From the IMG/VR virus record IMGVR_UViG_3300045988_171725, positions 1 to 64,000 of that record: DNA of 64,000 nt, one strand, 5' to 3'. The position numbers and the translations under genes are program-made. The first letter of the stretch is position 1; each line of letters begins with the position of its first letter. The notes beneath the pieces were generated by a model. That model was not told the DNA's origin. It saw only the letters and a program-made list of their open reading frames with translations, and searched no databases. The stretch comes from a virus. Of the stretch, positions 13,769 to 43,720 are shown piece after piece.

Positions 13769-13838
13769 AAGGTAGCTCCTTTGCCGACGACCGCTTCGAA
13801 CGACCTGATTGTGTCGGCTTGGCTTTGCTTTCTGCAAA

Positions 13839-13910
13839 AACCCATGAGCGCCGCGCATTGCTGCGCATCGGACTTGCACCGATTGCTCTTACGAGCAGGC
13901 CTTGCGGGTT
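13839..13910 (-). other. compact multi-hairpin RNA element in an intergenic spacer
   Basis: Read in minus sense, an AACCC/GGGTT closing helix encloses three hairpins: GCTC-GTAA-GAGC, ATCGG-N7-CCGAT and GCGCA-GCAA-TGCGC. Two have GNRA loops. A U run follows. Confidence 0.4.
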
Positions 13911-14112
13911 ACGCCGTGTATTGATAAATAGTTGGGAAACCGTTATCGCGCTCAATTTCACAAGCAACTGCTTCGCAACGCATGTGAGCTTCCTCCCAAA
14001 GTTTATCTTCGCTTTCGGCACTTACTTCAAAAGTAAGCGTTTTGACTTTTCTCCACTCATCGTTCATTAAGTCGTGAGCTTCAAAATTTGCTGTAATTTT
14101 CTTTGTTAACAT
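13909..14112 (-). CDS. hypothetical small protein (67 aa)
   Basis: Weak AAGGAA RBS. Confidence 0.5.
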   Translation of the reverse strand: MLTKKITANFEAHDLMNDEWRKVKTLTFEVSAESEDKLWEEAHMRCEAVACEIERDNGFPTIYQYTA

Positions 14113-24020: not shown

Positions 24021-24049
24021 TTGACGGATTAAATTTTCTATGTTATAAT
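24021..24049 (+). promoter_or_regulatory. sigma-A-type promoter P7 (drives a non-coding unit)
   Basis: AAACGC-TTGACG 24021-24026, 17 nt, TGtTATAAT 24044-24049, with a long A/T tract upstream. Confidence 0.75.
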
Positions 24050-24055
24050 CCCACC

Positions 24056-24438
24056 GAAACTGAATAGTTATCAGCGGACGCACCACCGCTTTAACAATAG
24101 GATAGCCGCAAATGTTGCCGCCACACACCGACATATTTTGCGTCAGAGGATCGTGGACACCAAACAAAACCTCAATAAAAAAGACGGTGGGTATAGGAAG
24201 GCGAAGAAGAGAGCGCTTACCTCGATAAAGACGTTATGGATTCGCGTGTAACGAGAGGTATGACGATGTGAAATCATTGTTTATATGTGTGTTATAGCAG
24301 AACGGAAACTCAAGCAGGGGAAGTTTGTGAAAAGGGTATAATGCCGTCCCGTTATTGCATGGGAGCATTATACCCAAAACACAGAACCATTTTTCTCGCA
24401 AAGGAAGGTTTGTGTTTATCATTTCTTTTTGTTTTTTT
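24056..24438 (+). ncRNA. orphan structured RNA of about 380 nt, unknown class
   Basis: Bounded by P7 and an intrinsic terminator (11-bp stem 24377-24388 with 24407-24417, then a T run to 24438). No + strand ORF with an RBS. Internal hairpins include GGGTATAATGC...GCATTATACCC (24334-24375), AGCGG-N8-CCGCT (24073-24090) and TACCTCG...CGAGGTA. Confidence 0.55.
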
Positions 24439-24553
24439 ATGTAATTTTCACATTTAATAAAGTTTTTGGGTATAATTATAGGGTGGTTTGGGTGGGGTAA
24501 GAAGATATTCGATTGTATAATTAAAATTTAATAAAAATAAAAATGATAAATAC

Positions 24554-24582
24554 TTGACGACTTACGTAAAGCATGTTATAAT
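24554..24582 (+). promoter_or_regulatory. sigma-A-type promoter P8 (start of the long rightward operon)
   Basis: TTGACG 24554-24559, 17 nt, TGtTATAAT ending 24582. Confidence 0.7.
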
Positions 24583-25769: not shown

Positions 25770-27435
25770 ATGCCAGTTTTGCAAAACCTGTATCAGGTTT
25801 ATAAATTACCATCGAGTTTTATCGTGGAAAACAATTTAAAAATCGATAATTATACTCGAAAACGAGCGATTCAAGACGGAAATCTTGTAAGTGTCGGCGA
25901 CAATATGGTATTTTATAAAATTCGGGATTATTATGGGGACACAAGAAGTCACAAAGAGATTTTCGACGCGGTGCAAAACCTTCGAACGACTCTTCGCATT
26001 TGTAAAAGAGAAGGTAAAATACTCGAAGGGCACATCGTAAATCAACAAATTCAGGATATTCTTTTTGTGAAAGACATAATTGTTGTAGTTTGCGAGAAGA
26101 AATCTGAATATCTAAAAATTGGTACAAAAGGATTTGAAATAAACGGAGTCAGATATACGAGACTTTGCGCGGGAGCTGGAAATTTGCGCCGTAACAATGC
26201 GATTTATGTAAACGAGAAGCTTTACCCTTATCTTTACGAAGTGTTTATGTGCGGGCTCGCAGACAAACTTAAAGAAGCGGTTCTTCCAAAACTCAGCGCG
26301 TATTTTGCGCTTTCCTTTTCGTCGGTTTTGTGGGTTAGAACGCCGCGAGTTTGCGTGATAAAAGACTTCGAAACGACGCTCCCCAATCAGAACGTCGATT
26401 TCATTTGTCGAAAGGAAGAATTGGACGACGAAGGAAAACCTCGAACGAAACATTACATCGAAAAACGCGTGATGGATTTAACGCTCAATAGTGCGGACGG
26501 GCAAGGTTTGGTAGATCCCGAATTTAGTAAGTTGTGGGCGGAAGATATGCAGCTCGATTACGTGCCTTCATCGTTTGTTGTCAGAAGTTCGTTCGTGAAA
26601 GGGAACCTCGTTCCGTTTGATTTTAAGGCTTACGCAGCGGAACATGGAATAGACAAAATTAAGGATAGATGGGGTGTTGAATACCCGTTGAATGAAATTG
26701 ATGTTTTATTAAGCGAGTCGCAGTTCAAAGAATATAAGGAATATTCGAGCTGGCAGGAGTATTTGTATTATTTTAACAAATACAAGCTCCGTTGGGGTGT
26801 CGCCCGTTACAATAAGAAACACGATGATGAATATGTTCTCGCGAATTACCAATACATTCAAGCGCTTACCCTTTCGAAGGAAGATATTCACGGGTTAATT
26901 CAACCGACAATCGATTGGATTAAAAACATTTGTTCGGGCGATGATTTATACAGCCTTCTTTTTATGTTCGGAGGCAAAAGCGAAGACGTGACTTATGAGA
27001 GAATGTACTCTTCGGCGCAATCAACGTTTATGAAAGCGATCGTAAAAAACAACGAGATGCTGAAAGACGCGCACGTTCAGCGGAAGATTTACAAAAACAT
27101 CGTTGAGTGTATAAACCGTGCGAAGATTGGCAAGATTTGGGTGAGAGGAAATTACCAGTTTATGATTTCTGACCCGATCGCGCAGTGCCAGTCGGCGTTG
27201 GGATTACCAGTTAAAGGGGAAATTCCAGCCGAACACGTTTGGTCGAATTTTTGGAATGAACGACGAATTGAGGGTTATGTTGACTGCTGTCGTTCGCCAA
27301 TGATCGATACAAGTGAGCATAACCCGTCGAAGTTATATAAAAGCGAAACCACAGAAAAGTGGTATCAATATATAAAGAGTGGTTTGGTGTACAGCATATA
27401 CGATGTCGCGACATTTAAACACTCGGATAGTGACT
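25770..27435 (+). CDS. RdRP/YonO-like single-subunit RNA polymerase, exon 1
   Basis: AAGGAGA RBS. SFVVRSSFVKGNLV (R...KG.L), CCRSPMIDTSEH (R.P). Ends ...FKHSDSD + T, the first base of the Phe codon of DFDGD. Confidence 0.65.
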
Positions 27436-28424
27436 TAACGATATAGGTCCTGCGATTGGTGACAATCGTATGCAAACTCGGTGAACCCATAAATGTGGGG
27501 TGTGGAGATTAATCTCTGCTAACGACAAAAATCTTCTTTCGATTTTCGCAATATAAATACGAGAAGGTGATATTGTTGGATTTTGATAAGATAGATTTTT
27601 CTGTAAAGAAATATGATAAAACTCGTAAATATTATGTTTATGAGTGGTATAATGTTGAAACTGGCGCTGTCTTTTATGTTGGTAAAGGTAGCGGTGGTAG
27701 ATACAAAAGAGTGACAAATAGTTCTCGAAATATATATTTTTTAAGATATTACAACAAATATAAATGTGATAGCAGGATTTTATTTTGTGGCTTGACGGAA
27801 GAAGAAGCATATCTTAAAGAAAAAGAAATTATAATAAAATATAATAAACTCGGCTATCAATTAACGAATTGTGACGAAGGAGGGCACCCTGGTGGAGCTA
27901 ATTCTGGAGAAAAAAATGGTATGTATGGAAAGACCCATACTCCAGAAGTTCGTAAAATCCTAAGAGATGTTAATCTTGGAAAGATTGGCAAAACAAATTC
28001 AAACGCAAAGTATTGCGATGTTTATGACGATAAGTTTGAATTTATAAAACATTTCGATTGTATAACCGATGCAATGAATTATATTGGTGAAATAGAGAAC
28101 AGAACATATAAGAGTATGGTAACGTATTTTTGGAGATATCAAAACGGAACCATAGATATTATACTAAATAAGTATCATATAAAAATTTATAGAAAATCGA
28201 GAGAAGACAATGACGTGCCAAGCGTTTCTAAAAATGGAAATGAAGGTACAACGACTATCGAAAGCGTATAAATAGAGAAATACTATTTAAAGTAAGCAAG
28301 TAGAGTACCAATGAGTGAAATTCTCAACGGGAAGTGCCGAGGTTCTTATATTTGGTGAAAGAATATAAGAATATAAAATAGTCTATACCCCTAATAAATA
28401 TCGGGCGACCGAGGGTAGGAATAG
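27436..28424 (+). mobile_element. group I intron carrying a GIY-YIG homing endonuclease ORF
   Basis: P1 helix: exon GACU (27432-27435) pairs with GGUC (27446-27449) and ends in a U-G wobble. The last intron base is G (28424). Contains a GNRA hairpin 27453-27468 and a 10-bp hairpin 28343-28371. Removing it restores the reading frame. Confidence 0.65.
27567..28271 (+). CDS. GIY-YIG homing endonuclease (I-TevI-like, NUMOD3 repeats)
   Basis: YYVYEWYNVETGAVFYVGKGSGGRYKR (GIY...YVG). GEKNGMYGKTHTPEVRKILRD and GKIGKTNSNAKY (NUMOD3-like). The start may be GTG 27567 or TTG 27576. Confidence 0.8.
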   Translation: MILLDFDKIDFSVKKYDKTRKYYVYEWYNVETGAVFYVGKGSGGRYKRVTNSSRNIYFLRYYNKYKCDSRILFCGLTEEEAYLKEKEIIIKYNKLGYQLTNCDEGGHPGGANSGEKNGMYGKTHTPEVRKILRDVNLGKIGKTNSNAKYCDVYDDKFEFIKHFDCITDAMNYIGEIENRTYKSMVTYFWRYQNGTIDIILNKYHIKIYRKSREDNDVPSVSKNGNEGTTTIESV

Positions 28425-29566
28425 TCGATGGAGACATTGCCCTTTCAACAGATAACGAATATTTCTTGAAAGGTGCTCACAGAAATGAAAACATAATAAC
28501 TTATGAAAAAGGCATTGCCCGTAAGGAAGAAATTTCCCAGAAAAACTTCGTAAAAAAAGACCTTATGGGCTTTGGTACGGCGGTCGGCAGTCTTTCAAAT
28601 ACCGCGACGATTATTTACGCGATGATCGGGATTTTCAATAAACCAGAACAGGAGCCGCAACGCCAAGAGTTATACACGCGAATAAAGCTTCTTCGCGAAT
28701 ACGTCGGGCAGGAAATTGACAGAGCGAAACTCGGAATAAAGCAGCAAAAACTTCCAGTCGAGTGGAGAAAATATATTCATGTAAATAAAGATGATACCGA
28801 TGAAATAAAGGCGGAAAAATATAAACACAATTCCATGGTAATTAAAAAGAAACCTTATTTCTTTCGTTATCTTTATCCTGAATGTAATAAAGAGTTTAAA
28901 CAATTTGAAAATGGCTATAACATTATATCAAAAGATATGTTTGGGCTGAAATTAAAAAAGCTTTTTGCGAAACCAAACAAAACGGGAAAAGAAATGACGC
29001 TCGTTAGACAATATCAAAAGAATTGCCCTCTGATTGTTTCAAATTGTACAATGAATATCTTATGTAAAGAATTTGAGAATGTTGATTTTGACATAAAATT
29101 TGGTAAATCTAATGTGAATATGCTTAATCTTTATCAAAATGAAGGTTTTAAAGTCAATTCATCAATTCTTACGAAGTTTCGCAACGCTTATCGTAAATAT
29201 AACAATAAAAAGACAATAATTGCGCTCGATGATGTTTTTGAAAACAAAGACGAGGACGATATAAAGAATATTTACAATCTCGTTCTCGATACGGCAAAGC
29301 AGGAAATCCAGGAAGAAATTTTCGGGTTCGGGTTAAAGCCCAAGGAAATGCTTTTTTACGTCGGTCAGCTTGCGAAGGAATATACAAATTTCAATTGGAG
29401 TTTTGTTTGGGACATAATGGATTCAATCGTTCCCGAAGGCGTTGAACAAGGGAAAAGTTACGCACCAGTTCGTTCGGAAGACGGAGAAGAATATCTCGGC
29501 GAGAAGTTCATGCTCAAAGAAGTTATAAAGAGAGCCGAAGGGGAGGTTTATACGAATGTTGAATGA
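28425..29566 (+). CDS. RdRP/YonO-like RNA polymerase, exon 2
   Basis: Begins TC GAT GGA GAC, which completes DFDGD. The frame is open for 69 nt upstream of the first possible start codon, and no RBS is present there. Confidence 0.65.
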
Positions 29567-30161: not shown

Positions 30162-30955
30162 ACGACTATATATTTGATTGGGCGGAAAACAGCGAGAAAA
30201 TTTTGGCGGGCGGAGGTTATACAACCAAAGTCCACCAAACCTTCGAGCAGATAATGCTTTTCGCGTATTTAAGAGAAAAAGGATACAGCAAAGACGAAAT
30301 ATTCAGTTTGTGGACTAAAACCGACTCATTGCTTCTCCAAAAAATCGGGGACGACAAAAACCAGAGAGATAAATATTTCGGGAAGTTGTTCGCGGATTCG
30401 ACGAAGTATAAAATTGAGAAGGGGAATCGGATAGATATTTATCAGAGCGAGATTGATTTTATCAACAATATGGAAGTGAGTATGTGGATAAAACAGTACG
30501 TTCTTGCGATGTTGTGTATTTATAAGTGGTATGGGAAGGAATGGTGCGTTTATAACGATAAGATTAAGAGGTTTTGTTATAGTTGCACGAGTACAAAAAA
30601 AGAAAGAGACCGAAACACCGAATTGTTAAGTTTATGTGTTAATGAATATAGACCGTTTATAATTAACTCAAGAAATAATTTTCTGTCTTTTAAAATTTTA
30701 TTTTGTTATAAAAATGATACTATAATTAAAAACATAAGAAGTCCAAGAGAAGTTCATGAGTGTTTTTTATTTCTTAAAAATGAAAAAAAATGTTTAAAAT
30801 GTGGCAAAGTGTTTTTTTATAAGGAAAATTCTATAAATTTAGATAATTGTCCAATATGTAGAAAAAAAATAAAATATCATAGAGAGTATTTAAGCAGATT
30901 ACAAAGGGGTTCGGGAAAACTCTATAATAGTGAAAACAGACAAATAACTGATTAA
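30158..30955 (+). CDS. hypothetical protein with C-terminal zinc ribbon (265 aa)
   Basis: CLKCG...CPICR. ATGA overlap with the upstream gene. Confidence 0.6.
   Translation: MNDYIFDWAENSEKILAGGGYTTKVHQTFEQIMLFAYLREKGYSKDEIFSLWTKTDSLLLQKIGDDKNQRDKYFGKLFADSTKYKIEKGNRIDIYQSEIDFINNMEVSMWIKQYVLAMLCIYKWYGKEWCVYNDKIKRFCYSCTSTKKERDRNTELLSLCVNEYRPFIINSRNNFLSFKILFCYKNDTIIKNIRSPREVHECFLFLKNEKKCLKCGKVFFYKENSINLDNCPICRKKIKYHREYLSRLQRGSGKLYNSENRQITD
30898..30934 (+). promoter_or_regulatory. 37-nt conserved promoter-like element, copy A
   Basis: ATTACAAAGGGGTTCGGGAAAACTCTATAATAGTGAA, reading as TTACAA-18-TATAAT. Identical to copy B. Lies about 35 nt upstream of the 30969 gene. Confidence 0.5.
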
Positions 30956-30968
30956 AGGAGAGAACGAG

Positions 30969-32162
30969 ATGATAGATTTCGAAGATATAGATTACAAACG
31001 CCTTGACGAAGAAACTGAAGATGATTATACCCTCCGTATATGCGCGTTAAAAGAAATAAAACATCTTTATTGGGATGAAATTGCCCAAATAATAAATAGA
31101 ACGCTCGACCAAAATTATACCGAAAGCAGATATAGAAAAATGTATTCCGCTTACACAAAAGGAAAAGCAGATGCAGTTAAGGAAGAGGAAATCCCAGAAA
31201 TCTCCGAATATATGCAGCAGAAAATCGAACTCCAAAAAGAGCGTATAAAAATCTCCGACGAAAGAGTTCAAACGAATGCTTATATCCGTCAACTTGCGAG
31301 GGAAGAGACAATTAAAGAGATAGCCTCGAAATGCGCTCAGGAGATGAACTCTAAAAAGCTCCTGGAGGCTCGTAAAATTGATAGAGATTTTTTTGGCGAA
31401 GGAAATTCCGCGATTGTTTGCCTGAGCGATTGGCATTACGGTATTGATATAAAGAATTATTGGAACGTTTACAACCCAGACATAGCGAAAGAGCGTGTTG
31501 CAAAATTACGCGACGAAGTTAGAGTTTATTGTCTTGCAAACGGCGTAAAAGATTTACATGTTGTAAACCTCAGCGATTTAATTTGCGGACGTATCCACCT
31601 CGGGTTGAGACTTGAAAGCAGGTTCGACGTGATAACGCAGGTAATGCAGGTTTCTGAAATTCTTGCCGAGTTGTTAAACGATTGGGCGACAGATTTCGAA
31701 ATTCATTATTATGACTGCCTTGATAATCATAGCCGTCTTGAACCAAATAAGAAAGACGCCATGGATTTGGAAAGTCTTGCAAGAGTAATCCCGTGGTATC
31801 TTAAAGAACGTTTGAATAACAGAATTATAATTCACGAAAACGAATATGATGAGGGAATTATAACATTCAGATGTCACGGTTACGAAGTAGTCGGCGTTCA
31901 CGGAGATCATGATAAACCAAGCACAGTTGTTGACAATATGAGTTTGATGACACACAAACACTACGATTTGGTTGTGACGGCTCATCTCCATCATTTCTCG
32001 GCGGATGAGAAAAACGAAACGGTAGTTGTGAGCAATGGTTCGCTGATGGGAACAGACACATATGCAAAGAATTTGAGATTAAGCAGCAAGGCGTCGCAAA
32101 ATCTTATTATCGCGACCGACAATTCACCTTGCGAATGTATATATAGAATAATTTTGAATTAA
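30969..32162 (+). CDS. metallophosphoesterase (Mre11/SbcD-like) with N-terminal helical domain
   Basis: CLSDWHYG, DNHSR, GVHGDHD and TAHLHH in canonical order. Confidence 0.65.
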   Translation: MIDFEDIDYKRLDEETEDDYTLRICALKEIKHLYWDEIAQIINRTLDQNYTESRYRKMYSAYTKGKADAVKEEEIPEISEYMQQKIELQKERIKISDERVQTNAYIRQLAREETIKEIASKCAQEMNSKKLLEARKIDRDFFGEGNSAIVCLSDWHYGIDIKNYWNVYNPDIAKERVAKLRDEVRVYCLANGVKDLHVVNLSDLICGRIHLGLRLESRFDVITQVMQVSEILAELLNDWATDFEIHYYDCLDNHSRLEPNKKDAMDLESLARVIPWYLKERLNNRIIIHENEYDEGIITFRCHGYEVVGVHGDHDKPSTVVDNMSLMTHKHYDLVVTAHLHHFSADEKNETVVVSNGSLMGTDTYAKNLRLSSKASQNLIIATDNSPCECIYRIILN

Positions 32163-32316
32163 AAAAGTTGATAAAACGATTGGGACAGGGAGTCATGACC
32201 TTTTCCACAACTCCTTTTTGTGGAATTACCAATCTTTTATAATATTTTGTTTTTTTTTAGAAGGAGCTAAAAATGAGTAGTAAAAAAATAATATTACCAA
32301 AGAGAACTTATATGAT

Positions 32317-33444
32317 TTGTATATAATACAAGATAAAACTATTGAAGAATGTGCGGAATATTTTAATTGTAGCAAATCTGTTATAAGAAGAAGGATAGCA
32401 CAATATAATATTAAATTAAAGGGGCATTCTTATACGAGAAGACATATAATACCAAAAGATAAGCTTTATAAATTTTTTATAAGAGAAAACCATTCGTTAA
32501 AAGAAACCGCCAGCAAATTTGGGTGTTCTGGCGCGACAATATTACTAAGATGTAAAGAATATGGCATAAGAAAACTGGGAAATATAGTTGATAAAGATGA
32601 ATTATATCAGTATTATATTGTAGAGAATCATACCAAGAAACAATGTAATCAATTTTTTAATTGTTATGTCGACCCGTATCTTCAAAAATATGGAATATTA
32701 AAACCAAAAGATAAAATCAATGAGAATACGTGGCATGAAAAATACCATGTTGATGTTGATTGTTTATATGATTTATATATAGCTAAAAATCATACGGTTG
32801 ATGAATGTGCGGAATTTTTTAAATGTCCAAAATCTAAAATAGAAATAACATTGCGAAAGAACAATATACACAAGGTTAATACTATTCCAATACCAAAAGA
32901 TGAACTATATAATTATTACATAGAAGAAAATCATACAGCCTATGAAACGGCTGAATTTTTTAATACCACCGTTTCAAAGGTGTTTTATTGGGCAAATAAA
33001 GTTTATGGAATAAAGAAAGATGTCTATAAAGCAAATGAGTTAACGCAGAAGAAAATGCGTGAAAACAAAACTTTTAATAGTTCCAAACAAGAAGATTTAT
33101 TTTATGAATATTTAGTAGGCAAATATGGAAAAGATGATATAATCAGACAATACAAGGAAGAAAGATATCCGTTTAATTGTGATTTTTATATAAAATCGAA
33201 AGATATTTTTGTAGAGTTAAATCTTAATTGGACGCATGGCAGAGAACCATTTGATTTTACAAATCTAAATCATATACAAAAAGCTAAGATATTAGAGGAA
33301 AGATCGGTTTATTCTGATTTTTATAAGATTGCTTTAAATGTTTGGACTGAACGCGACCCGAACAAAATTAAAACAGCAAAATTGAATAATCTTAATTACG
33401 TTATGTATTATAACGTTAAAGATTTGTATGATGGCAGAGTGTAG
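32317..33444 (+). CDS. homing-endonuclease-like protein: five HTH repeats + PD-(D/E)XK-type nuclease
   Basis: Five repeats of K(D/E)ELYxxYIxENxTxxExAExF....I......GIxK. C-terminal SKQEDLFYEYL...FNCDFYIKSKDIFVELN. Paralogue of 43824-44945. The true start is uncertain (see findings). Confidence 0.6.
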   Translation: MYIIQDKTIEECAEYFNCSKSVIRRRIAQYNIKLKGHSYTRRHIIPKDKLYKFFIRENHSLKETASKFGCSGATILLRCKEYGIRKLGNIVDKDELYQYYIVENHTKKQCNQFFNCYVDPYLQKYGILKPKDKINENTWHEKYHVDVDCLYDLYIAKNHTVDECAEFFKCPKSKIEITLRKNNIHKVNTIPIPKDELYNYYIEENHTAYETAEFFNTTVSKVFYWANKVYGIKKDVYKANELTQKKMRENKTFNSSKQEDLFYEYLVGKYGKDDIIRQYKEERYPFNCDFYIKSKDIFVELNLNWTHGREPFDFTNLNHIQKAKILEERSVYSDFYKIALNVWTERDPNKIKTAKLNNLNYVMYYNVKDLYDGRV

Positions 33445-33474
33445 CTTTTGCCATTTTTTTATAAGGAGTAAAAG

Positions 33475-34341
33475 ATGATAAAACAAGTAAAAAAGGAAGT
33501 TGAAGAAGAAAATATAATAGACAGCGTGTTATCGTCTGAAACGAATGAAACCATAGATCCTACCGAAGGGTTGTCGGAAGAAGATTTAGCAAATAGGCGA
33601 GAAGTTTTGTCGATATTTCATTATGACCCATTTGAAAGAGAATGTTTATCAGATCGTAAAAAAATGTATAGAGATGTTACCATAATGGTCACACCAGATC
33701 TCTCAACTGATTTACCAAAACAAAGAGGATGTATTGATTTGGTTCGAAGTTATTTGAGAGCCGATAAAATTTCGGTAGCAATTCAAGAGCTCACGAAAGA
33801 TGCGGATACGATGATAAATAATGATAAAAAATTAAAAACCTTGCAGGATTTTCAAAAGACAACGAGCGACATAATCCAAAAAAACTTAAAAGATTTTGGA
33901 TTTAGTGAGCGTTATTCGTTAGCGAAAAGTAAGGGTGTCGGAACACTTTCTTATATAATGCGTGAAAGCGAGGAAGTCGACCGCGATGACGAGAAAATAA
34001 ACATTTACGACGTTGAAACAAGCAAAAGTATGCAGTTGGCAAGCGATATAAGCGCCGAATCGTTTTTTAAACAAATCGCGTTAAATGCGGGTGATTATAA
34101 GGATATCGTAACGAAACAGAAAAAGTTAATCAAAGAATTGACGGACGAAAACAAAAAACTTAAAGAAGAAAATCGGCTTATTTACGAACAGATAACCAAA
34201 GAAGAACTTTTGAAAGAACTTGCAAAGAAGCTCGAAGGGAAGGGTTTGGGGCGTAGAGAAATACAAGATATGGTTCTCGCAGAAATTCATTACGATGATA
34301 ATGAAATAAAAGAGATGAAGAAGCGAGGTAAAAATAAATGA
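33475..34341 (+). CDS. possible small terminase subunit (288 aa)
   Basis: Called on position only: it lies immediately upstream of, and overlaps, the large terminase gene. Coiled-coil C-terminus. Confidence 0.3.
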   Translation: MIKQVKKEVEEENIIDSVLSSETNETIDPTEGLSEEDLANRREVLSIFHYDPFERECLSDRKKMYRDVTIMVTPDLSTDLPKQRGCIDLVRSYLRADKISVAIQELTKDADTMINNDKKLKTLQDFQKTTSDIIQKNLKDFGFSERYSLAKSKGVGTLSYIMRESEEVDRDDEKINIYDVETSKSMQLASDISAESFFKQIALNAGDYKDIVTKQKKLIKELTDENKKLKEENRLIYEQITKEELLKELAKKLEGKGLGRREIQDMVLAEIHYDDNEIKEMKKRGKNK

Positions 34342-36255: not shown

Positions 36256-36672
36256 ATGATTGGAAAATTAGTAGTAGATTACGAAGAAGTAAGTTTGGGA
36301 GATTTGTTGGAGTTTTTAATTGATAAAGGTATAGAGTGTTGTGTTGATGGGGATAATATTTATACATATTTAGAAAATTACAAAGGGGTTCGGGAAAACT
36401 CTATAATAGTGAATAAGAAGAAAATACAAAATTATTTCTTCAAAGAATTAACCTCACCGCCGACTCGCACTCCGACAAATTATGTGCAAACTTGGCTTTT
36501 AGAGAAATTCAACGAACAAGAACGTCTTCGCTTCGAGGAACAACATCAAGCCGAATTAAAAAAGGCACAGGAGAATATCCAGAAGGCGATGGAAGAGTAT
36601 AAACAGTTATACACAAAATACGTAAATCAACAAAACAAGGAGGCGCAGTCCGATGGCGGATCAAACAACTAA
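36256..36672 (+). CDS. hypothetical protein (138 aa)
   Basis: AAAGGAA RBS. Contains copy B of the 37-nt element. Confidence 0.55.
   Translation: MIGKLVVDYEEVSLGDLLEFLIDKGIECCVDGDNIYTYLENYKGVRENSIIVNKKKIQNYFFKELTSPPTRTPTNYVQTWLLEKFNEQERLRFEEQHQAELKKAQENIQKAMEEYKQLYTKYVNQQNKEAQSDGGSNN
36377..36413 (+). promoter_or_regulatory. 37-nt conserved promoter-like element, copy B
   Basis: Identical to 30898-30934 but read in a different frame. Lies about 240 nt upstream of the portal gene. Confidence 0.45.
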
Positions 36673-43691: not shown

Positions 43692-43720
43692 TTGACAAAC
43701 GTTAAGTGATTTGTTATAAT
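43692..43720 (+). promoter_or_regulatory. sigma-A-type promoter P9 (HEG cassette)
   Basis: AAACGC-TTGACA 43692-43697, 17 nt, TGtTATAAT ending 43720. Confidence 0.75.

What the first reader, a model, noticed from the sequence alone, without database searches (positions are those of the whole stretch)
25770..29566. Phage-encoded single-subunit RNA polymerase of the RdRP/YonO two-barrel type
ORF 25770-27446 and the ORF ending at 29566 read as one 935-aa gene (2808 nt including the stop) once the intervening 989 nt are removed.

The product carries three diagnostic strings:
- SFVVRSSFVKGNLVPFDF, the R...KG.L strand of eukaryote-type RdRPs and the SPbeta YonO family.
- CCRSPMIDTSEH, the R.P motif.
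- HSDSDFDGDIALSTD across the junction, which is the universal DbDGD Mg-binding loop of two-barrel RNA polymerases.

I saw no T7-like or multisubunit RNAP signature.

The same fragment holds ten near-consensus host-type promoters, mainly in front of early or accessory units. A switch from host RNAP to phage RNAP is therefore plausible. YonO-type enzymes and their promoters are very poorly characterised.
Basis: partly seen in the sequence, partly recalled or inferred. Interest (0 to 1): 0.75.

Follow-up and report, generated by a model that had tools for sequence, protein, structure and literature searches.

The report
Intron-split YonO-type phage RNA polymerase gene

Summary
Joining 25770-27435 to 28425-29566 (removing 989 nt) gives a 2808-nt frame encoding 935 aa, with DFDGD across the join. 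Uninterrupted 935-aa genes in related contigs (90-94% identical) read exactly like the spliced sequence.

The protein belongs to the YonO family:
- BLASTP against SPbeta YonO gives E 1e-43, with all three motifs aligned.
- Both proteins match the same PHROG (8308).
- The gene order from the polymerase to the YonJ-like exonuclease, terminase and portal matches SPbeta.
- An AlphaFold model of the 94%-identical homolog (pLDDT 92) matches only cellular RdRPs in the PDB (maize RDR2 E 4e-19, QDE-1 E 4e-15).

The intervening 989 nt is a group I intron carrying a GIY-YIG-like homing endonuclease ORF. It has a U·G pair at the 5' splice site, a terminal G, and covarying P3, P7, P7.1, P7.2 and P8. Its 3' module is shared with over 100 phage introns, two of which pass Rfam's threshold.

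Related genes carry introns at three points within the DxDGD codons. Eleven near-consensus host-type promoters (2.4 expected) lie almost entirely upstream of the late block.

Late-gene transcription by this enzyme is inferred, not shown. Verdict: a new member of known kinds, of moderate interest.

The parts
25770..27435 (+). Exon 1 of the YonO-like RNA polymerase gene (aa 1-555 plus the first base of codon 556); ends in T.
   Evidence: tblastn of the spliced protein.
27436..28424 (+). Group I intron, 989 nt; ends in G (the terminal guanosine).
   Evidence: Precise deletion restores the sequence of intron-less alleles. The core is homologous to Rfam-validated introns. Covariation.
28425..29566 (+). 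Exon 2 (the last two bases of codon 556 through aa 935, plus the stop).
26571..26624 (+). SFVVRSSFVKGNLVPFDF: basic-residue strand of the beta-like barrel (R272, K277, G278).
   Evidence: K277 and G278 are invariant and R272 at least 90% conserved in 77 homologs. Aligns to YonO SFMVRLPWVKGLLVPFDF and to RDR2 PSAFQIRYGGYKGVI.
26490..26513 (+). SADGQGLV: the invariant D243-G244-x-G246 of the beta-like barrel.
   Evidence: Invariant columns. Aligns to RDR2 sDGIGKIS.
27285..27320 (+). CCRSPMIDTSEH: the R508-x-P510 motif of the beta'-like barrel.
   Evidence: Invariant columns. Aligns to YonO ILRSPHL.
27432..28435 (+). DFDGD catalytic loop codons, split by the intron: GAC T | TC GAT GGA GAC.
   Evidence: D555, D557 and D559 are invariant. 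Aligns to YonO DNDGD.
27432..27449 (+). P1: exon GACU plus intron UA (27432-27437) paired with the internal guide UAGGUC (27444-27449). The last exon base U27435 forms a U·G pair.
   Evidence: RNAfold. The same arrangement with changed guides occurs in L051, L053 and L009.
27452..27469 (+). P2 hairpin GCGAUUG-GUGA-CAAUCGU.
27477..27483 (+). P3 5' strand CUCGGUG; pairs with 28335-28341.
   Evidence: Compensatory changes: CUUGGUG/CGCCAAG (L126), CUUGGUG/UGCCAAG (L068) and AAUGGUG/GUGCCAUU (L009).
27486..27519 (+). Two extra hairpins (27486-27499 and 27502-27519) between P3 and J3/4-P4.
   Evidence: RNAfold. Both covary among L009, L053, L068 and L126.
27523..27578 (+). P4 (CGACAA 27523-27528 / UUGUUG 27573-27578) enclosing P5.
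   Evidence: RNAfold. L053 has the same P4.
27567..28271 (+). Intron-encoded homing endonuclease ORF (234 aa from GTG 27567). A more likely start is TTG 27573 or 27576, after the AAGGTGA ribosome-binding site. It has a YVY...YVG (GIY-YIG-like) N-domain and a NUMOD3 motif. Its 3' end overlaps the P7 5' strand.
   Evidence: phrog_314 'homing endonuclease', E 1.9e-13. NUMOD3 scores 20.3 bits against a cut-off of 20.4. Weak tblastn hits include 'intron associated endonuclease'.
28253..28258 (+). P7 5' strand GACUAU; pairs with AUAGUC at 28378-28383.
   Evidence: RNAalifold, (in all five sequences for five of the six pairs, four of five for the sixth).
28335..28341 (+). P3 3' strand UGCCGAG.
28343..28371 (+). 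P8 hairpin UUCUUAUAUU-UGGUGAAAG-AAUAUAAGAA.
   Evidence: Compensatory changes in RNAalifold.
28378..28417 (+). Conserved 40-nt 3' module: P7 3' strand and P9 with a GNRA-capped inner hairpin.
   Evidence: Exact pattern found in more than 119 viral-contig stretches. Members L089 and L093 pass Rfam RF00028.
24021..24582 (+). Three near-consensus sigma-A-type promoters (24021-24049, 24447-24476, 24554-24582) upstream of the dNMP-kinase and RNA polymerase unit.
30969..32162 (+). YonJ-like exonuclease gene, the synteny marker shared with SPbeta.
   Evidence: phrog_284, E 5.6e-62. PF27386 YonJ_N on the L001 ortholog. SPbeta gene order.
33430..33455 (+). Terminator-like hairpin plus a T-run directly in front of the packaging genes.
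   Evidence: A hairpin of different sequence sits at the same position in L001, L010 and L006.

Best explanation
The region is one gene for a YonO-family, single-subunit, two-barrel RNA polymerase of 935 aa. It is interrupted inside the codons of the Mg-binding DFDGD loop by a 989-nt self-splicing group I intron, which carries its own homing-endonuclease gene.

Proposed sequence of events:
1. Host sigma-A RNA polymerase starts at the strong promoters at 24.0-24.6 kb and transcribes the dNMP-kinase and polymerase unit. This step is inferred.
2. The intron folds (P1 with a U·G pair at 27435, P3-P8, P4-P6, P7, P9) and removes itself using guanosine. This joins GAC T to TC GAT GGA GAC. The anatomy is shown; catalysis is inferred.
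3. The spliced mRNA yields an enzyme with all family-invariant residues. [quoted passage not shown] It probably reads through intrinsic terminators such as 33430-33455. This step is inferred.
4. The endonuclease cuts intron-less alleles in co-infecting relatives and spreads the intron. This is inferred from presence/absence polymorphism among near-identical phages.
For: Join:
- The spliced frame is 2808 nt.
- Intron-less 935-aa homologs are 90-94% identical.
- L001 DNA is identical at the junction.

Family membership:
- BLASTP against SPbeta YonO gives E 1e-43 and 28% identity over 516 aa, with all three motifs aligned.
- The window protein matches phrog_8308 at 4e-101, and YonO matches the same PHROG at 1220 bits.
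- tblastn hits in 39 phage records are mostly SPbeta-group yonO genes.
- A profile of 78 homologs hits only RDR2 and QDE-1 significantly among PDB sequences, E 7e-6 to 5e-3.
- The AlphaFold model of P0001 has pLDDT 92.3 and pTM 0.89.
- Its top 21 Foldseek PDB hits are all RDR2 or QDE-1, E 4e-19 to 6e-14, TM 0.38-0.47 over up to about 960 aligned columns. Only weak beta' chains follow.
- Eighteen invariant family columns plus the nearly invariant R272, including D243, K277, R508, P510 and D555/557/559, are kept in the window protein.

Context:
- The order dNMP kinase, polymerase, YonJ-like exonuclease, TerL, portal matches yonO...yonJ in SPbeta.

Intron:
- The ORF-less relative in L009 matches Rfam Intron_gpI over the full model at 31 bits, E 3e-6.
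- The window's 40-nt 3' module is shared with more than 119 viral stretches. L089 and L093 score 55 and 54 bits against a gathering score of 50.
- RNAalifold on five related 3' halves predicts 46 pairs, 22 with compensatory changes.
- P3 covaries.
- P1, P2, P4 and P5 fold as expected.
- The endonuclease ORF is supported.

Promoters:
- Eleven strong sites against 2.35 expected; ten lie at 1-24.6 kb and only one in the 25-64 kb block.

YonO properties come from PMC5467207.
Against: - No experimental data exist for this phage. Splicing, template preference and target genes are all inferred.
- Rfam does not detect the window's intron directly. There is nothing at the gathering score, nothing for the whole intron at E <= 10, and only 9 bits for the 3' half.
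- Pfam RdRP does not hit the protein.
- Identity to YonO is only 28%, and the C-terminal third does not align.
- No phage-polymerase promoter could be identified.
- One strong host-type promoter lies inside the putative late block, at 43692.
- The structure was predicted for the 94%-identical homolog P0001.
Confidence: 0.8

Rival explanations
1. The enzyme is a true RNA-dependent RNA polymerase, as public annotations of its homologs say. It would copy RNA, for example to make dsRNA or amplify a transcript, rather than transcribe phage DNA.
For: - The closest solved structures are eukaryotic RdRPs.
- Homologs are named 'RNA-dependent RNA polymerase' in GenBank and UniProt.
- Relatives pass Pfam RdRP.
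- QDE-1 has both activities (PMC9508822, listed).
Against: [quoted passage not shown]
- The window protein shares YonO's PHROG and its gene neighbourhood at the head of the late block.
- The database names are transferred from the Pfam family name.
Confidence: 0.07
2. The two ORFs are not joined. The gene is disrupted by a dead insertion, making it a pseudogene, or it is expressed as two separate polypeptides.
For: - Gene callers and databases list the halves separately: 558-aa and 562-aa fragments, phrog_25339 and phrog_35857, and the BFVD top hit of 563 aa.
- Rfam does not call the intron in the window.
Against: - The break falls inside a codon of the catalytic triad, so the separate halves would lack DFDGD.
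- The first listed start codon of the second ORF (28466) lies after the DGD codons.
- Both halves keep every invariant residue.
- The insert has canonical group I boundaries, with covarying helices in related introns.
- The same intron is kept at about 99% identity in L010 and also in L133.
Confidence: 0.04
3. [quoted passage not shown] It might serve middle genes, replication priming, or transcription that escapes a host defence.
For: - No phage-specific promoter was found.
- A strong host-type promoter lies in the structural block at 43692.
- The late role rests only on analogy with SPbeta at 28% identity.
Against: - Synteny with the SPbeta late cluster.
- Ten of eleven strong host-type promoters lie outside the 25-64 kb block.
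- A conserved terminator-like hairpin sits directly before the packaging genes, with no room for a promoter after it.
Confidence: 0.09

Closest known systems
YonO of Bacillus subtilis prophage SPbeta (Forrest et al. 2017, PMC5467207)
   Same: - Same PHROG (8308).
- BLASTP E 1e-43, with aligned R..KG, RxP and DxDGD motifs.
- Single chain of about 100 kDa.
- Same position ahead of the yonJ-like, terminase and portal genes in a large siphovirus-type genome.
   Different: - Only 28% identical over aa 120-620; the C-terminal third is not alignable.
- 935 aa against 839 aa.
- Uncultured gut phage with an unknown host.
- The gene is interrupted in the catalytic loop by an intron, whereas SPBc2 yonO is uninterrupted.
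- There is no long non-coding stretch like the 1.7 kb between yonN and yonK, where the YonO start site lies.
Eukaryotic cellular RdRPs (QDE-1, RDR2; Pfam PF05183)
   Same: Overall fold match across most of the chain (Foldseek E 4e-19 to 6e-14, TM up to about 0.47). Shared DG.G, R..KG and D.DGD motifs.
   Different: - Sequence identity is 10-14%.
- Pfam's model does not reach this protein.
- The likely template is DNA, and the role is viral transcription rather than RNA silencing.
Mobile group I introns of phage genes (T4 td, nrdB and sunY; SPbeta bnrdE/F; SPO1 and Bastille DNA polymerase; the phiKZ-like RNAP beta-like gene intron mentioned in PMC2919709)
   Same: - Self-splicing intron inserted in the most conserved catalytic codons of an essential enzyme.
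- It carries a free-standing homing-endonuclease ORF in a peripheral loop that overlaps core helices.
- Presence/absence polymorphism among close relatives.
- P7.1 and P7.2 lie between P7 and the P3 3' strand. Assigning this layout to subgroup IA rests on my memory of the classification.
   Different: - The host gene is a YonO-type polymerase. I found no paper reporting that, although Goe11 and Goe14 records already annotate split yonO_1/yonO_2.
- Two extra covarying hairpins lie between P3 and P4.
crAss-like phage virion RNA polymerase (gp66 of phi14:2)
   Same: Also a phage-encoded two-barrel enzyme with a QDE-1-like fold. This comparison rests on my own knowledge.
   Different: gp66 is a domain of a much larger virion protein of about 2,200 aa that is injected for early transcription. 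Only a weak crAss-like match appeared here (BFVD rank 16, E 0.07), and no such entry was among the top 50 PDB matches.

Membership tests
Two-barrel (double-psi beta-barrel) RNA polymerases, YonO/RdRP branch | D-x-D-G-D Mg-binding loop in the beta'-like barrel. | tested here: met
   DFDGD at aa 555-559 after splicing. D555, D557 and D559 are invariant in 77-78 homologs. Aligns to YonO DNDGD and RDR2 DLDGD.
Two-barrel (double-psi beta-barrel) RNA polymerases, YonO/RdRP branch | R-x-P motif upstream of the aspartate loop. | tested here: met
   R508 and P510 are invariant. Aligns to YonO RSP.
Two-barrel (double-psi beta-barrel) RNA polymerases, YonO/RdRP branch | Basic residues and an acidic residue supplied by the second (beta-like) barrel. 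| tested here: met
   D243 (in DGxG), R272 and K277-G278 are invariant or nearly so. They align to RDR2 DGIG and IRYGGYKG. The second lysine of the eight-residue signature in PMC2919709 was not mapped with certainty; K174 and K320 are candidates.
Two-barrel (double-psi beta-barrel) RNA polymerases, YonO/RdRP branch | Overall fold like QDE-1/RDR2. | tested here: met
   The AlphaFold model of the 94%-identical P0001 has pLDDT 92.3. Its top 21 PDB matches are all RDR2 or QDE-1 with probability 1.00. The two barrels were not inspected individually.
Two-barrel (double-psi beta-barrel) RNA polymerases, YonO/RdRP branch | Significant match to Pfam RdRP (PF05183). | tested here: not met
   No hit at E <= 1 for the window protein, P0001 or YonO itself. 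Six of ten relatives score 38-52 bits against a cut-off of 23.8. This reflects the model's sensitivity limit and is not a defining feature of YonO-like proteins.
YonO-like phage RNA polymerases | Direct sequence homology to SPbeta YonO. | tested here: met
   BLASTP E 1e-43. Shared phrog_8308.
YonO-like phage RNA polymerases | DNA-templated, processive RNA synthesis, and a requirement for late-gene expression. | not testable with these tools
   Only synteny and promoter layout bear on it.
Group I intron | The 5' exon ends in U, paired with G in P1 formed with an internal guide sequence. The intron ends in G. | tested here: met
   GACU|UA pairs with UAGGUC. G28424 precedes exon 2. The guides differ in step with the exon sequences in L051, L053 and L009.
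Group I intron | Conserved core: P3-P8, P4-P6, P7 with J8/7, and P9. | tested here: met
   RNAalifold gives 46 pairs, 22 with compensatory changes. P3 covaries. P4 and P5 fold as expected. P6 could not be defined, because the ORF lies there.
Group I intron | Rfam RF00028 gathering score (50 bits). | tested here: not met
   For the window: no hit and 9 bits for the 3' half, because about 700 nt of ORF interrupt the model. Relatives: L009 scores 31 bits at E 3e-6; L089 and L093, which share the 3' module, score 55 and 54 bits.
Group I intron | Guanosine-dependent self-splicing. | not testable with these tools
   Requires an in-vitro transcript or RNA from infected cells.
GIY-YIG homing endonucleases | GIY...YIG catalytic domain of about 90 aa, plus a DNA-binding module. 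| tested here: inconclusive
   - YVY and YVG motifs at about aa 22-38.
- NUMOD3 at 20.3 bits against a cut-off of 20.4; LEM-3 GIY-YIG at E 0.15.
- phrog_314 'homing endonuclease', E 1.9e-13.
- No hit in NCBIfam or PDB sequences.

The most novel reading that the evidence does not exclude
The catalytic-site codons of YonO-type polymerase genes may be a shared homing hot spot for one very large family of gut-phage group I introns.

What is already seen:
- Related genes carry introns at three staggered points within six bases of the DxDGD codons: D|F, DF(1)|, and DFD|GD.
- These introns carry a GIY-YIG-like endonuclease, a LAGLIDADG endonuclease, or none.
- A second cluster of introns lies near the invariant IDxxK motif.

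The subfamily's core has two extra covarying helices between P3 and P4. This may be an undescribed structural variant.

Because the late polymerase cannot be made without splicing, intron folding could act as a checkpoint on the early-to-late switch. It could also act as a weapon between co-infecting phages.
Probability: 0.3. Interest if true: 0.55.

Novelty: new member of a known kind. Interest (0 to 1): 0.45.

Why it matters
YonO is the only biochemically studied single-chain relative of the cellular RNA polymerases. Its promoter and any helper factors were still undetermined in the 2017 paper, and I found no later paper or solved structure.

This window shows the family is common in uncultured gut phages. 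The exhaustive search found 1356 clusters at 50% identity with E <= 1e-3. That gives ample comparative material for finding promoters and for structural work. The predicted structure is already confident.

The gene is routinely mis-annotated, either as two fragments or as an 'RNA-dependent' polymerase. Recognising the intron corrects gene calls in many phage catalogues.

The staggered introns in the active-site codons are a clean natural example of homing-element competition for one target. None of this overturns current understanding.

Tried and rejected
- Rfam on the window found no intron at the gathering score, in the whole intron at E <= 10, or in the 3' half alone. I reached the intron through relatives instead.
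- Pfam, NCBIfam and single-sequence PDB searches of the protein found nothing. Profile, PHROG and structure searches were needed.
- Megablast of the region against the phage collection found no match.
I used the 94%-identical P0001.
- Exon co-conversion: window-versus-L001 identity dips at CDS nt 1483-1794, but also at 2029-2496, so there is no clear tract around the insertion site. I dropped this.
- Phage-polymerase promoter: a repeat search gave one 37-nt exact repeat (30898 and 36377). It is absent from the closest relatives, L001 and L010. Alignment of intergenic regions gave only a conserved terminator-like hairpin. No promoter is claimed.
- Alternative P3: pairing CUCUGC with GUAGAG was rejected. 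The 5' strand is locked in a covarying local hairpin, and AGUAGAG is a conserved junction even in introns whose P3 lies elsewhere.
- Host: only two metagenome bins carry close relatives, a Bacteroidaceae bin and a Christensenella bin. This is unreliable. The TTGACA-17-TGnTATAAT promoters point to a Firmicutes-type host, which is an inference.
- An intein was not considered further. The insert is not in frame and carries RNA, not protein, splicing features.


Full report
OBSERVATION

Cutting out 27436-28424 (989 nt) leaves 1666 + 1142 = 2808 nt. This is an open frame of 935 codons plus a stop.

The three quoted strings are present: aa 268-285, aa 506-517 and aa 551-565, with DFDGD at 555-559 spanning the join.

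The join is real biology, not a lucky frame. The protein database holds uninterrupted 935-aa proteins that are 94% (P0001) and 90% (P0002-P0005) identical to the spliced product. The DNA of one such gene (L001) reads ...GACTTCGATGGAGAC... at the junction, exactly the spliced window sequence. One base of ambiguity (T|T) is resolved by the group I rule that the intron ends in G.

WHAT THE PROTEIN IS

Single-sequence searches were negative. Pfam, NCBIfam and a phmmer search of PDB sequences found nothing. More sensitive tests all agree.

1. BLASTP against YonO of SPbeta (SPBc2) gives E 1e-43 and 28% identity over 516 residues. SFVVRSSFVKGNLVPFDF aligns to SFMVRLPWVKGLLVPFDF, CCRSP to ILRSP, and DFDGD to DNDGD.
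2. The window protein matches phrog_8308 at 4e-101. YonO matches the same PHROG end to end at 1220 bits.
3. tblastn of the phage collection finds 39 records. Most are SPbeta-group phages at the yonO locus. The rest include Clostridium phage c-st and Enterocloster, Thomasclavelia and Psychrobacillus phages, where the gene is sometimes labelled 'RNA-dependent RNA polymerase'.
4. A profile of 78 homologs finds only plant RDR2 and fungal QDE-1 significantly among PDB sequences, E 7e-6 to 5e-3, through the DG.G and R..KG segments.
5. An AlphaFold model of P0001 built on 77 diverse homologs is confident (pLDDT 92.3, pTM 0.89). Its 21 significant PDB matches are all RDR2 or QDE-1 (E 3.7e-19 to 6e-14, TM 0.38-0.47, up to about 960 aligned columns). 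Only marginal bacterial beta' chains follow.
6. Across the family the invariant columns are K174, Y178, D243, G244, G246, K277, G278, K320, R508, P510, D555, D557, D559, G610, N614, I653, D654 and K657. R272 is at least 90% conserved. The window protein keeps every one.

These correspond to the signature residues of two-barrel polymerases described by Ruprich-Robert and Thuriaux (PMC2919709) and Iyer et al. (PMC7824862).

Pfam's RdRP model misses this protein and YonO but passes six of ten relatives.

The family is large. An exhaustive search of 50%-identity representatives gives 1356 hits at E <= 1e-3 and 388 at E <= 1e-30.

CONTEXT

The gene follows a dNMP kinase gene. Downstream, all on the same strand, come two unknown ORFs, a YonJ-like exonuclease (phrog_284, 5.6e-62), an inserted HNH endonuclease gene, terminase large subunit, portal and further structural genes. 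SPbeta has the same backbone, yonO...yonJ.

Related contigs are 124-158 kb long, the SPbeta size class. No close cultured relative exists. The host is not established.

THE INTERVENING SEQUENCE

The insert is a group I intron.

- Boundaries. Exon 1 ends in U. That U pairs with G in a P1 helix formed by GACU|UA and the downstream guide UAGGUC. The insert ends in G (28424).
- Homology. The ORF-less relative in L009 (297 nt) matches Rfam Intron_gpI over the whole model at 31 bits, E 3e-6, below the curated 50 bits. The window's 40-nt 3' module (P7 3' strand plus P9) recurs exactly, allowing six free positions, in more than 119 viral-contig stretches. Two of these, L089 and L093, pass Rfam's gathering score at 55 and 54 bits.
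- Covariation. RNAalifold on the 3' halves of five related introns predicts 46 pairs, 22 with compensatory changes. They form P7 (GACUAU/AUAGUC), P7.1, P7.2, P8 and P9. P3 (CUCGGUG 27477-27483 with UGCCGAG 28335-28341) also covaries: CUUGGUG/CGCCAAG in L126, CUUGGUG/UGCCAAG in L068, and AAUGGUG/GUGCCAUU in L009. P2, P4 and P5 fold as expected.
- Direct detection. Rfam cannot see the window's copy, because a 705-nt ORF (27567-28271) occupies the P6 region and runs into the P7 5' strand.
- The ORF. It has YVY...YVG motifs, a borderline NUMOD3 motif and a match to the PHROG 'homing endonuclease'. I call it GIY-YIG-like, tentatively.

INTRON POPULATION BIOLOGY

Among phages at least 90% identical in this gene there are several alleles:

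- Intron-less alleles: L001, L002 and L005.
- The window's intron at the same site: L010 (about 99% identical) and L133.
- A related intron 5 nt downstream, GAT TTC GAT|GGT GAC. It is ORF-less in L009 and, in L006 and L007 (and probably the truncated L008), carries a LAGLIDADG-type ORF of 265 aa.

More distant YonO-like genes carry family members at three sites: between the first D and the next codon (L053, L103), at the window's site (L051, L064), and at the downstream site (L126).

About 20 of the more than 119 loci sharing the intron 3' module lie in YonO-like genes. A second cluster of breaks falls at query residues roughly 600-655, near the invariant I653-D654-x-x-K657. By rough alignment, this is also where Bacillus phage Goe11's annotated yonO_1/yonO_2 split lies.

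Among the 150 best 50%-identity representatives, 14 N-terminal fragments end at query residues 553-562 (13 of them at 553-557), and 2 C-terminal fragments start at 556-558. Breaks in the catalytic loop are therefore widespread and routinely mis-called as two genes.

HOW IT MOST LIKELY WORKS

Shown:
- The gene structure.
- The family membership.
- The intact catalytic residues.
- The intron anatomy.
- The presence/absence polymorphism.

Inferred:
- Host RNA polymerase expresses the gene from the promoters at 24021, 24447 and 24554.
- The intron self-splices, and the endonuclease promotes homing.
- The enzyme then transcribes the downstream late block.

The inference about late transcription rests on YonO. 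YonO is a processive DNA-dependent RNA polymerase. It is required for 37 late SPbeta genes, which it transcribes as one operon from a start site upstream of yonK. It bypasses pause signals and lacks the flap domain used in hairpin-dependent termination (PMC5467207).

The window's layout is consistent with this. Eleven near-consensus sigma-A-type promoters are found where 2.35 +/- 1.4 are expected. Ten lie at 1-24.6 kb and one (43692) in the 25-64 kb block. A terminator-like hairpin sits immediately before the packaging genes, at a position conserved in relatives but with different sequence. I could not identify a phage-polymerase promoter.

RIVALS

- True RNA-dependent activity: about 0.07.
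- Unspliced or pseudogene: about 0.04.
- A DNA-dependent enzyme with a role other than the late switch: about 0.09.

All three are weaker, for the reasons given in their entries.

COMPARISON AND NOVELTY

The protein is a new, divergent member of the known YonO-like branch. YonO-like enzymes in Firmicutes phages have been noted since 2003-2010 and were characterised in 2017. Gut-phage homologs already sit in databases under the name 'RNA-dependent RNA polymerase'.

Mobile group I introns in the catalytic codons of essential phage enzymes, including polymerase genes, are also a known theme (PMC2919709). I found no paper describing introns in yonO-type genes, although GenBank records of Goe11 and Goe14 show split yonO.

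The staggered insertion sites, and the two extra helices between P3 and P4 in this intron subfamily, are the only features that may be new.

VERDICT

The finding is correct and well supported. Novelty: new member of a known kind. Interest: 0.45.

Noticed in passing
window 13835-13912 (-): Twister-sister self-cleaving ribozyme. Rfam RF02681 scores 62 bits against a gathering score of 34, E 1.2e-11, full-length match. It lies in the minus-strand early region.
   Followed up: no
window 30898-30934 and 36377-36413 (+): A 37-nt exact direct repeat, ATTACAAAGGGGTTCGGGAAAACTCTATAATAGTGAA, read in different frames at the two sites. One copy is 35 nt upstream of the YonJ-like gene; the other is 240 nt upstream of the portal gene. 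None is expected by chance. It contains TTACAA-18-TATAAT. A related copy occurs twice in the L005 contig, but it is absent from L001 and L010. It could be a promoter or a mobile-element scar; unresolved.
   Followed up: partly
window 32163-33577 (ORF 32317-33444): An insertion of about 1.4 kb relative to the close relative L010. It encodes a 375-aa protein with an HNH endonuclease domain (phrog_8446, 8e-21) and internal 85-nt and 63-nt direct repeats. It looks like a free-standing homing endonuclease gene between the YonJ-like gene and the packaging genes.
   Followed up: partly
window 27486-27519: Two covarying hairpins lie between the P3 5' strand and J3/4-P4 of the intron. This is an unusual place for peripheral helices. 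They are shared by L009, L053, L068 and L126, and Rfam's alignment of L009 treats them as an insertion.
   Followed up: partly
loci L014-L132 (viral contigs): The same 40-nt intron 3' module precedes exon sequences that appear to encode Asp-x-Asp motifs (my reading of the DNA). Examples are ...ATTGATACAGAT, GTCGATATAGAT and TTTGACAGTGAT, some in genes with no detected similarity to YonO. One intron family seems to target metal-binding aspartate motifs across many gut-phage enzymes.
   Followed up: partly
window 51.8-52.2, 59.4-59.7, 62.3-62.5 and 63.7-63.8 kb (+): Collagen-like Gly-X-Y repeat arrays in several late ORFs, presumably tail fibres.
   Followed up: no
L003 (Bacillus phage vB_BsuS-Goe11) 2608-6405: yonO is annotated as yonO_1 (625 aa) and yonO_2 (204 aa), with a 300-aa hypothetical ORF between them. 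This is probably another intron with an endonuclease, near the IDxxK motif of a cultured SPbeta-like phage.
   Followed up: no
L051 13007-13068 (+): A RAGATH-18 RNA (Rfam RF03064, 55.8 bits) lies in a contig that also carries a YonO-like gene with an intron.
   Followed up: no
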